Of a stretch of DNA of 64,000 nt, positions 38,254 to 38,340 are shown one piece after another (positions within the stretch are counted from its first letter, which is position 1; each line of letters opens with the position of its first letter). The position numbers and the translations under genes are program-made. A model generated the notes under the pieces. That model ran no database searches. It was not told the DNA's origin and saw only the letters and a list, made by a program, of their open reading frames with translations. The stretch lies in the NCBI RefSeq assembly GCF_011045215.1, contig NZ_CP049201.1. The stretch is one strand, 5' to 3'. This DNA comes from Escherichia coli (GTDB taxonomy: Bacteria > Pseudomonadota > Gammaproteobacteria > Enterobacterales > Enterobacteriaceae).

Positions 38254-38283
38254 GAAAAACGGACCTCCGTGGAGGTCCGTTTA
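38254..38283 (-). terminator. Rho-independent terminator downstream of the tRNA-Phe 3' end
   Basis: Minus-strand reading aaacggacctccacggaggtccgttttt: perfect GC-rich hairpin followed by a T-run, immediately 3' of the CCA end. Confidence 0.8.
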
Positions 38284-38291
38284 TATGAATT

Positions 38292-38340
38292 TGGTGCCCG
38301 GACTCGGAATCGAACCAAGGACACGGGGATTTTCAATCCC
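38292..38340 (-). other. 3'-terminal 49 nt of tRNA-Phe (pheU) without the 5' half; island attachment-site core repeat
   Basis: tggtgcccggactcggaatcgaaccaaggacacggggattttcaatccc is the reverse complement of the anticodon-stem to CCA-end portion of tRNA-Phe; the match stops at 38340 and the D-arm and acceptor 5' strand are absent. Confidence 0.85.

What the first reader, a model, noticed from the sequence alone, without database searches (positions are those of the whole stretch)
38254..38340. Island junction: only the 3' 49 nt of tRNA-Phe with its native terminator remain, fused to island DNA
38292-38340 (minus strand) match tRNA-Phe from the anticodon stem to the CCA end; the D-arm and 5' acceptor strand are replaced from 38341 by unrelated sequence leading into parA. 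This is the expected scar of site-specific integration at the tRNA 3' end, with the intact tRNA and the integrase predicted at the distal end outside the window. The repeat length defines the att core.
Basis: partly seen in the sequence, partly recalled or inferred. Interest (0 to 1): 0.6.

Follow-up and report, generated by a model that had tools for sequence, protein, structure and literature searches.

The report
Conjugative island junction at tRNA-Phe (pheU)
This is the ordinary boundary scar left where a known type of self-transmissible DNA island (SPI-7/ICEEc2 family) inserted into the E. coli pheU tRNA gene: a displaced 49-base tail of the tRNA still attached to its usual downstream terminator.

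Summary
Window 38292-38340 (minus strand) is an exact 49-nt copy of tRNA-Phe positions 28-76. It is followed by the same terminator hairpin (38257-38282) and flank (integrase relic yjdQ, then cadC, cadB, cadA) that lie downstream of intact pheU in E. coli K-12. Identity to K-12 stops at 38341.

From 38341 rightwards the DNA is the backbone of an SPI-7-type / PFGI-1-class integrative conjugative element (ICE). It carries parA, dnaB-PI, parB, STY4528, topoisomerase III, STAXI RNA, STY4534, ssb, PilL2 and TIGR037xx genes. An IS21-family element (ISSso4) interrupts it at 61493.

The window holds no second copy of the 49-mer and no 5' half of the tRNA. I checked four E. coli genomes that carry both ends of related ICEs. 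In each, the far end, 57-80 kb away, has TraI, a 330-aa tyrosine recombinase and an intact tRNA-Phe. The direct repeat is exactly 49 bp. A copy integrated at pheV has the same 49-mer and the same island arm next to a different chromosomal flank.

There are three caveats. The distal end of this genome cannot be seen. The 49 bp is an identity block, not the crossover core. The "native" terminator lies in a relic of an older P4-type island. This is a known kind of feature and of low interest.

The parts
38292..38340 (-). Displaced 3' 49 nt of tRNA-Phe (positions 28-76). This is the integrase-distal copy of the 49-bp att direct repeat of the ICE.
   Evidence: Exact and unique in the window. Identical to the K-12 pheU 3' part. 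An exact 49-bp repeat with the intact tRNA-Phe is seen in four relatives. Not a tRNA by ARAGORN or Rfam.
38250..38282 (-). Intrinsic terminator hairpin plus T-tract that follows pheU in island-free E. coli. It remains attached to the displaced fragment.
   Evidence: Terminator scan. Fold -18.9 kcal/mol, z -4.1. Identical in K-12 downstream of the intact pheU.
38135..38291 (-). Chromosomal flank immediately 3' of the tRNA. It is homologous to the tRNA-proximal arm of an intact P4-type integrase island.
   Evidence: 82% identity over 169 aligned columns to L007 2796-2964, which lies between the tRNA fragment and a 421-aa integrase gene.
37919..38096 (-). Relic of the 3' end of a P4-type integrase gene (yjdQ pseudogene of K-12). 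It belongs to the chromosomal flank, not to the ICE.
   Evidence: RefSeq annotation of relatives and K-12. blastn 69% and tblastn to integrase residues 359-420.
36137..37675 (-). cadC, the chromosomal gene downstream of pheU. It anchors the locus as pheU rather than pheV.
   Evidence: 512-aa ORF. Collinear with annotated cadC in K-12, cM8a, A41 and UMNK88.
38341..38439 (+). parA-proximal arm of the ICE (attP-derived), between the repeat and parA.
   Evidence: Unrelated to K-12 from 38341. The first 60 bases of the arm are identical, and the rest nearly so (3 differences in the 90 bases compared, one a 1-base indel), next to the 49-mer in F2_407_2_2 (pheU) and JNEC-KY180 (pheV).
38440..39315 (+). 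parA/soj-type partition ATPase, the first gene of the ICE.
   Evidence: ORF. ParA-family NCBIfam hits, all below their curated cut-offs. Annotated 'ParA family protein' in relatives.
38341..61492 (+). SPI-7-type / PFGI-1-class ICE backbone: dnaB-PI 42596-44128, parB 44125-45804, STY4528 48214-49482, PFL_4669 51266-51964, topoisomerase III 51975-53984, STAXI RNA 54298-54448, STY4534 54615-55070, ssb 55380-55913, Rpn 55962-56894, PilL2 57080-57682, TIGR03759 58453-59178, PFL_4695 59603-60343.
   Evidence: NCBIfam hits above curated cut-offs. Rfam STAXI. ssb is named by collinearity with the annotated ssb of UMNK88 and F2_407_2_2. 57-85% coverage at 94-96% identity with ICEs of other E. coli.
61493..64000 (+). 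IS21-family element ISSso4 (istA, then istB running off the window). It is inserted 42 bp into the ICE gene that precedes traD in relatives.
   Evidence: 99.6-100% identity to annotated ISSso4 copies. IS21 transposase family hit. The homologous uninterrupted gene order is seen in JNEC-KY180. Junction sequence.

Best explanation
The feature is the integrase-distal junction of an SPI-7 / ICEEc2-type integrative conjugative element inserted in the E. coli pheU tRNA-Phe gene. By the usual convention this is attR, with attL next to the intact tRNA.

The circular element carries an attP that contains a 49-bp copy of the 3' part of tRNA-Phe, from the anticodon stem to CCA. Its tyrosine recombinase exchanges strands between attP and the same 49 bp in pheU (attB).

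Two things result. An intact tRNA gene is rebuilt at the integrase end from the chromosomal 5' part plus a 49-bp block. The other 49-bp block stays joined to the chromosomal terminator, the yjdQ relic and cadC. It now abuts the parA end of the island. That second block is what the window shows.

Shown here:
- the exact fragment and its two edges;
- the empty site in K-12;
- the ICE gene content;
- the 49-bp repeat with integrase and intact tRNA at the far end in relatives, at both pheU and pheV.

Inferred:
- that this genome also has the distal end;
- that strand exchange occurs at or near the anticodon loop, at the 5' edge of the identity block;
- that the element can still excise.
For: - The 49-nt match is exact, with none expected by chance.
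- The flank is collinear with and nearly identical to the K-12 pheU downstream region. Homology breaks at 38341.
- The ICE signature families dnaB_SPI-7_type, ICE_PFGI_1_parB, STY4528_fam, STY4534_fam, ICE_PFL4669, conj_PilL and TIGR03759 all score above their curated cut-offs. STAXI RNA is also present.
- 27 of 5,426 complete E. coli genomes hold the whole cadC-flank / fragment / parA junction.
- In UMNK88 the island runs 65.6 kb to TraI, a 330-aa tyrosine recombinase and an intact tRNA-Phe next to dicD.
- The direct repeat is exactly 49 bp in UMNK88, cM8a and F2_407_2_2 at pheU. It is 49 bp plus one fortuitous base in JNEC-KY180 at pheV.
- The pheV copy has the same 49-mer and arm next to a different flank.
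- The same genomes that carry the proximal junction also carry the integrase/tRNA-Phe junction.
[quoted passage not shown] ICEEc2-type ICEs use pheU and pheV and transfer by conjugation (PMC11537424, PMC13127887). Integration restores the core at both ends of an element (PMC7192596).
Against: - The distal end of this genome is not in the window.
- No complete E. coli genome matches the window's island fully. The best is 96.4% identity over 85%.
- An IS21-family element interrupts the transfer region at 61493. The element may therefore be rearranged or immobile here.
- No assembled circular form (contiguous attP) was found in the plasmid or E. coli collections.
- The position of strand exchange inside the 49 bp is not shown by any data here.
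Confidence: 0.9

Rival explanations
1. Fossil junction. The scar arose by the same site-specific integration, but in this genome the ICE is decayed. It has been hit by an IS and may be truncated, with the integrase end lost or moved. On this reading the fragment is an inert relic rather than a working att site.
For: ISSso4 sits 42 bp into the gene preceding traD and runs off the window. No complete genome shares the full island variant. Many phe-tRNA islands in E. coli lack one repeat after deletions (PMC11537424).
Against: All 23 kb of backbone before the IS is collinear with relatives, and the main backbone genes checked are present as long ORFs that match their families over nearly the full profile length. 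The 49-mer is perfect. A single IS insertion need not remove the distal end.
Confidence: 0.25
2. The junction was inherited by homologous recombination of a large chromosomal segment, for example by Hfr-like transfer driven by an ICE. On this reading the integrase did not act in this lineage, and the scar records an integration in a donor ancestor.
For: [quoted passage not shown] The same junction sequence occurs in phylogenetically scattered strains.
Against: Nothing in the window distinguishes the two routes. The flank is ordinary E. coli sequence, about 99% identical to K-12. The anatomy and mechanism of origin of the scar are the same either way.
Confidence: 0.1
3. The scar belongs to a P4-type integrase genomic island (GI-pheV/pheU, LEE or PAI type) rather than to an ICE.
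For: A P4-type integrase relic lies 200-370 bp from the fragment on the chromosomal side. pheU and pheV are hot spots for such islands (PMC11537424).
Against: P4-type islands at phe tRNA genes leave 19-23-bp repeats (PMC11537424), not 49 bp. The relic is present in island-free K-12 downstream of the intact pheU. It is therefore older than this junction and lies on the wrong side of it. The DNA joined at 38341 is an ICE backbone.
Confidence: 0.02
4. A chance resemblance, or a degenerate pseudo-tRNA produced by deletion.
For: In one relative with a different island arm (A41), RefSeq annotates a 79-nt 'tRNA-OTHER' over the fragment.
Against: The match is exact over 49 nt with zero expected by chance. 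The same 49-bp repeat is found at both ends in four relatives and at two different tRNA loci. ARAGORN and Rfam reject a tRNA here.
Confidence: 0.01

Closest known systems
ICEEc2 of E. coli BEN374 (Roche et al. 2010, J Bacteriol 192:5026) and related ICEs at pheU/pheV of E. coli
   Same: Same species and same target genes (pheU/pheV). The backbone is of the same pKLC102/PAGI-2/SPI-7-type family, as annotated in relatives. ICEs of this kind are cited as conjugative elements at pheU/pheV (PMC11537424, PMC13127887). Relatives in RefSeq share the junction, the parA-side arm and 94-96% of the backbone.
   Different: The ICEEc2 paper itself is not in the held library, so its att-site length and sequence identity to this window were not compared. 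The window's variant has a different 3-kb segment between parA and dnaB compared with UMNK88, and it carries an ISSso4 insertion.
SPI-7 of Salmonella enterica serovar Typhi
   Same: [quoted passage not shown] The window's genes hit the NCBIfam models named after it: dnaB_SPI-7_type, STY4528_fam and STY4534_fam.
   Different: SPI-7 is 134 kb and carries the Vi capsule locus and the SopE phage. None of this cargo is seen in the 23 kb of island in the window. The host and the chromosomal flank (cadC here) also differ. The SPI-7 repeat length was not checked here.
pKLC102 / PAPI-1 / ICEclc / ICEHin1056 family of ICEs
   Same: The layout is the same: parA/soj at one end, a tyrosine recombinase next to the tRNA gene at the other, and PFGI-1-class conjugation genes (TIGR037xx). 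In PAPI-1, soj is needed for maintenance and is expressed from the circular form (PMC2704930).
   Different: These elements target tRNA-Lys or tRNA-Gly genes in Pseudomonas or Haemophilus. The sequence relationship to them was inferred only through shared family models.
P4-type integrase genomic islands at pheV/pheU (GI-pheV, LEE and PAI islands)
   Same: The same tRNA genes are used. The 23-bp P4-type site (TTCGATTCCGAGTCCGGGCACCA) lies inside the 49-mer. A relic of such an integrase lies in the flank.
   Different: They leave 19-23-bp repeats and place the integrase directly after the tRNA 3' end (PMC11537424). Here the repeat is 49 bp and the adjoining DNA is an ICE parA end.

Membership tests
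tRNA-gene att junction of an integrative element (displaced 3' tRNA fragment) | Exact copy of the 3' segment of a tRNA gene, ending at the mature 3' end | tested here: met
   49/49 identity to pheU positions 28-76, unique in the window, none expected by chance.
tRNA-gene att junction of an integrative element (displaced 3' tRNA fragment) | One flank is collinear with the region downstream of the intact tRNA in a genome that lacks the element (empty site) | tested here: met
   The K-12 order pheU-terminator-yjdQ-cadC-cadB aligns base for base up to 38340 and diverges from 38341.
tRNA-gene att junction of an integrative element (displaced 3' tRNA fragment) | A second, direct copy of the fragment inside an intact tRNA gene at the other end, next to an integrase gene | not testable with these tools
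   Not present in the window, and the source genome was not found. It is met in four relatives, with an exact 49-bp repeat, a 330-aa tyrosine recombinase and an intact tRNA-Phe.
tRNA-gene att junction of an integrative element (displaced 3' tRNA fragment) | The same fragment and element arm are joined to a different chromosomal flank at a paralogous target | tested here: met
   JNEC-KY180 at pheV has yghD, the pheV terminator, the 49-mer and the same arm (first 60 bases identical) followed by parA.
tRNA-gene att junction of an integrative element (displaced 3' tRNA fragment) | Excision yields attP (circular form) and restores attB | tested here: inconclusive
   A synthetic attP (integrase arm + 49-mer + window arm) has no contiguous match in 72,556 plasmids or 5,426 E. 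coli genomes. This needs PCR or read-level data. Excision and transfer are reported for family members (PMC4100779, PMC13127887).
SPI-7-type / PFGI-1-class ICE (pKLC102/PAGI-2 family) | Signature maintenance genes: parA, SPI-7-type dnaB, PFGI-1 parB, STY4528, STY4534, topoisomerase III, ssb | tested here: met
   NCBIfam scores versus cut-offs: NF040583 689.6/655, TIGR03764 379/144, NF040582 405/130, NF040584 196/160, TIGR01056 818/516. The gene order is the same as in annotated relatives, which also place ssb there. parA matches only general ParA-type models, all below their cut-offs.
SPI-7-type / PFGI-1-class ICE (pKLC102/PAGI-2 family) | PFGI-1-class conjugation genes (PilL2, TIGR03759, PFL_4669, PFL_4695, traD, TIGR0374x-5x, TraG) | tested here: inconclusive
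   The first four are present above cut-off. traD and the rest would lie beyond the ISSso4 insertion and the window end. They are present in relatives.
SPI-7-type / PFGI-1-class ICE (pKLC102/PAGI-2 family) | Relaxase (TraI) and tyrosine recombinase at the tRNA-proximal end | not testable with these tools
   Outside the window. Present in relatives.
P4-type integrase island at a phe tRNA gene | 19-23-bp direct repeat of the tRNA 3' end, with a P4-type integrase gene directly after the intact tRNA | tested here: not met
   The repeat is 49 bp. Only a relic of about 180 bp of such an integrase exists. It is on the chromosomal side and is also present in island-free K-12. Repeat lengths are from PMC11537424.

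The most novel reading that the evidence does not exclude
The orphan tRNA half may not be inert. It keeps its own terminator and sits 100 nt from the divergently oriented parA. It could be transcribed from the island arm, or by read-through, into a stable 3' tRNA-Phe half. Such an RNA might act as a small RNA or as a decoy for tRNA-binding factors, so that ICE carriage would alter host tRNA biology. The evidence does not exclude this. Nothing supports it either: no sigma-70-like promoter was found on the minus strand in 37700-38700, and the fragment does not fold as a tRNA.
Probability: 0.03. Interest if true: 0.45.

Novelty: already known. Interest (0 to 1): 0.12.

Why it matters
The junction fixes one boundary of a conjugative island to the base (38340/38341). 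It identifies the insertion site as pheU and, through the 49-bp repeat length, indicates which recombinase family made the insertion: the ICE-type rather than the P4-type, which leaves 19-23 bp. This helps with annotation, with delimiting the island in the full genome and with designing attP/attB assays. ICEs at pheU/pheV have been reported to mobilise large chromosomal segments between E. coli strains (PMC13127887), so knowing that a strain carries one has some epidemiological value. It does not open a new biological question.

Tried and rejected
- **Source genome, E. coli collection.** The junction and the island were searched against 5,426 complete E. coli genomes. No record is identical. 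The best is 98.4% at the junction and 96.4% over 85% of the island. The distal end of this genome therefore could not be read.
- **Source genome, species representatives.** An exact-pattern scan of 100,044 species-representative genomes for the core/arm junction found nothing.
- **Circular form.** A synthetic attP had no contiguous match in the plasmid or E. coli collections. Each half matched one island end only.
- **Functional or pseudo-tRNA.** Rejected by ARAGORN and Rfam.
- **P4-type island scar.** Rejected on repeat length and on the position of the integrase relic (PMC11537424).
- **Read-through from the integrase driving parA in the circular form.** Considered but not adopted. The integrase-side arm of relatives carries a strong hairpin between int and the core.
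- **Papers not held.** Roche 2010 (ICEEc2), Williams 2002 (tRNA sublocation classes) and Bueno 2004 (SPI-7 excision) are not in the library. Statements about them rest on citations in held papers and on my own recollection.

Full report
**1. The observation**

On the minus strand, window 38292-38340 reads GGGATTGAAAATCCCCGTGTCCTTGGTTCGATTCCGAGTCCGGGCACCA. The 49-mer occurs once in the 64-kb window with no mismatch, and none of 100 shuffles gave a match. It is identical to the last 49 nt of the annotated pheU gene of E. coli K-12 MG1655 (L003 3052-3100). That corresponds to tRNA positions 28-76: from the second base of the 5' strand of the anticodon stem, through the anticodon loop, variable loop, T arm and 3' acceptor strand, to CCA.

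No working tRNA is present:
- ARAGORN finds no tRNA in the window.
- The Rfam tRNA model reaches only 15.8 bits against a gathering score of 29, with the D arm missing and the acceptor stem mispaired.
- The 5' 27 nt of tRNA-Phe are absent from the window at up to three mismatches.

Immediately 3' of the fragment on the minus strand is a terminator-like site at 38282-38257. It has an 11-bp stem with six G-C pairs and a 4-nt loop, followed by TTTTTCGTTT. Its folding energy is -18.9 kcal/mol, z = -4.1, and no shuffle folds as well.

**2. The two flanks**

*Left of the fragment.* The ORFs at 36137-37675, 34437-35771 and 32210-34396 (all minus strand) correspond to cadC, cadB and cadA. This is the gene order annotated downstream of pheU in K-12 and other E. 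coli. An alignment of window 37950-38480 with K-12 is almost perfect through the yjdQ pseudogene region, the terminator and the 49 nt. It collapses at 38341, where the window has A and K-12 has C, with unrelated sequence after that. K-12 is therefore the unoccupied site.

*Right of 38341.* The sequence leads after 99 nt into a ParA-type ATPase gene, most likely starting at the ATG at 38440 in the ORF 38422-39315. A run of genes then hits NCBIfam models named for integrative conjugative elements, all above their curated cut-offs:
- SPI-7-type island replicative helicase (689.6 bits, cut-off 655)
- PFGI-1 ParB
- STY4528 family replication protein
- PFL_4669 family protein
- topoisomerase III
- STY4534 family protein
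- PilL2
- TIGR03759
- PFL_4695 domain

The ssb gene (55380-55913) is placed by collinearity with the annotated ssb of relatives. The only Rfam family in this part of the window is STAXI RNA at 54298-54448. G+C rises from about 0.40-0.46 in the cadC flank to 0.52-0.61 in the island.

**3. Relatives**

The whole junction (cadC flank, fragment, parA) is present in 27 of 5,426 complete E. coli genomes. The 49-mer and its chromosomal flank are present in essentially all of them. The island backbone matches ICEs of other strains at 94-96% identity over 57-85% of its length, with the same gene order.

*Walking one relative to its far end.* In UMNK88 the island runs 65.6 kb from the fragment. The far end carries a UvrD-like helicase, a TraI relaxase, a 330-aa tyrosine recombinase and an intact tRNA-Phe next to dicD-dsbD-cutA.

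*Repeat length.* I compared the two ends base by base. The direct repeat is exactly 49 bp in UMNK88, cM8a and F2_407_2_2 at pheU. It is 49 bp plus one fortuitous base in JNEC-KY180, where the element sits at pheV.

*The pheV copy.* This copy is informative. The 49-mer and the island arm (ATGGCAATGAGCTTCTGATAATTAAG...) match the window; the first 60 bases of the arm are identical. The chromosomal side, however, is the pheV terminator and yghD. Both edges of the 49-mer are therefore recombination junctions, not accidents of one locus.

*Both junctions in the same genomes.* A search with the integrase/tRNA-Phe distal junction recovers the same strains that hold the proximal junction.

**4. Mechanism**

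The best-supported account is the standard one for tRNA-targeting elements. The excised circle carries an attP with a 49-bp copy of the tRNA 3' part. The element's tyrosine recombinase recombines it with the same 49 bp in pheU. An intact gene is re-formed at the integrase end. The other copy remains attached to the chromosomal terminator and now abuts parA.

Support from papers in the library:
- Integration restores the core at both ends of an element (PMC7192596).
- ICEs of the ICEEc2 type use pheU and pheV and transfer by conjugation, even mobilising chromosomal DNA (PMC11537424, PMC13127887).
- In the related PAPI-1, the terminal soj/parA gene is needed for maintenance and is expressed from the circular form (PMC2704930).

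Two steps are inference only. The first concerns where strands are exchanged. The identity block starts inside the anticodon stem. A tRNA-restoring element must carry everything 3' of the crossover, so the exchange most likely occurs at the symmetric anticodon stem-loop at the 5' edge of the block. The idea that tyrosine integrases favour such symmetric sites is cited in PMC7192596 from Williams 2002, which I could not read. The 49 bp is therefore an identity block that contains the core, not the core itself. The second inferred step is that the copy in this genome is still active.

**5.

(a) The distal end of this genome cannot be seen. No genome in the collections is identical to the window.

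(b) The backbone stops being collinear with relatives at 61492. From 61493 to the window end there is an IS21-family element, ISSso4 (99.6-100% identity to annotated copies). It is inserted 42 bp into the gene that precedes traD in relatives. The element may therefore be damaged or rearranged.

(c) The terminator is native in that it follows pheU in island-free E. coli, but its origin is layered. Window 38135-38291 is 82% identical to the stretch between the tRNA fragment and an intact 421-aa P4-type integrase gene in strain F2_407_2_2. Window 37919-38096 matches the 3' end of that gene. The latter is the yjdQ pseudogene of K-12. The pheU downstream flank of E. coli thus looks like the relic of an older P4-type island, and the terminator lies in its tRNA-proximal arm.

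(d) P4-type islands at phe tRNA genes leave 19-23-bp repeats (PMC11537424). The 49-bp length therefore assigns this scar to the ICE recombinase, not to that relic.

**6. Rivals**

- A decayed, immobile remnant of the same integration is compatible with the IS insertion. I give it about 0.25. It changes the present activity of the site, not its nature.
- Import of the whole region by homologous recombination is possible (PMC13127887). It is indistinguishable here and would not change the origin of the scar.
- A P4-type island scar was tested and rejected.
- A chance or degenerate tRNA was tested and rejected.

**7. Comparison with known systems and novelty**

The closest known elements are ICEEc2 and its relatives in E. 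coli, and SPI-7 of S. Typhi. These belong to the pKLC102/PAGI-2/ICEclc/ICEHin1056 family. The features visible in the window meet the definitions of both a tRNA att junction and an SPI-7-type ICE backbone. The integrase, relaxase and most conjugation genes lie outside the window.

A search for an assembled circular form found none, so excision is not shown for this variant. The first 60 bases of the junction's island arm are identical in other sequenced strains. This is an already known kind of feature, correctly read by the first stage, and of low interest (0.12).

The most novel reading not excluded is that the terminator-bearing tRNA half is expressed and functional. It has no support: there is no minus-strand promoter in the scan. 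I give it about 3%.

Noticed in passing
window 37919-38291 (minus strand): The 'native' pheU downstream flank looks like the relic of an older P4-type integrase island. 38135-38291 (including the terminator) is 82% identical to the tRNA-proximal arm of such an island in E. coli F2_407_2_2. 37919-38096 matches the last ~60 codons of its 421-aa integrase (yjdQ in K-12). About 1.1 kb of the gene is missing in between.
   Followed up: partly
window 61493-64000: An IS21-family element ISSso4 (istA 61592-63259, then istB running off the window) is inserted 42 bp into the ICE gene starting at 61451. That gene lies just upstream of traD in relatives. It may disable conjugation or mark a rearrangement.
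   Followed up: partly
window 54298-54448 (+): STAXI RNA (Rfam RF01728, 135 bits) lies in the ICE between topoisomerase III and the STY4534/ssb genes. This is its usual genomic company.
   Followed up: no
window 39316-42595: The segment between parA and dnaB-PI differs from most relatives. UMNK88 has about 0.5 kb here, the window about 3.3 kb. Its ORFs (39897-40649, 40650-41165, 41676-42413) hit no NCBIfam family. It is partly shared with strain F2_407_2_2.
   Followed up: no
L002 3593-3671 (E. coli A41): In a relative with a different parA-side arm, RefSeq annotates a 79-nt 'tRNA-OTHER' covering the 49-nt fragment plus 30 nt of island DNA. This is probably an annotation artefact of the orphan tRNA half.
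   Followed up: no
L005 about 16290-16325 (UMNK88), and the same place in L009, L010, L011: The integrase-side arm of the ICE carries a strong hairpin (GGGAGCATG-loop-CATGCTCCC) followed by TTTTCT on the tRNA strand, about 100 nt after the rebuilt tRNA-Phe. The element may supply a replacement terminator for the tRNA gene that has lost its own. The loop varies between strains while the stem is kept.
   Followed up: no
L007 1502-2767 (E. coli F2_407_2_2): In this strain the ICE's orphan 49-mer is followed by an intact P4-type integrase gene and an ISEc8 copy. The ICE and a P4-type island are therefore stacked in tandem at pheU.
   Followed up: no
window 7786-7951 (+) and 2031-2107 (-): Two enterobacterial small RNA families lie in the chromosomal part of the window: STnc630 (169 bits) and naRNA4/CssrE (104 bits).
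   Followed up: no
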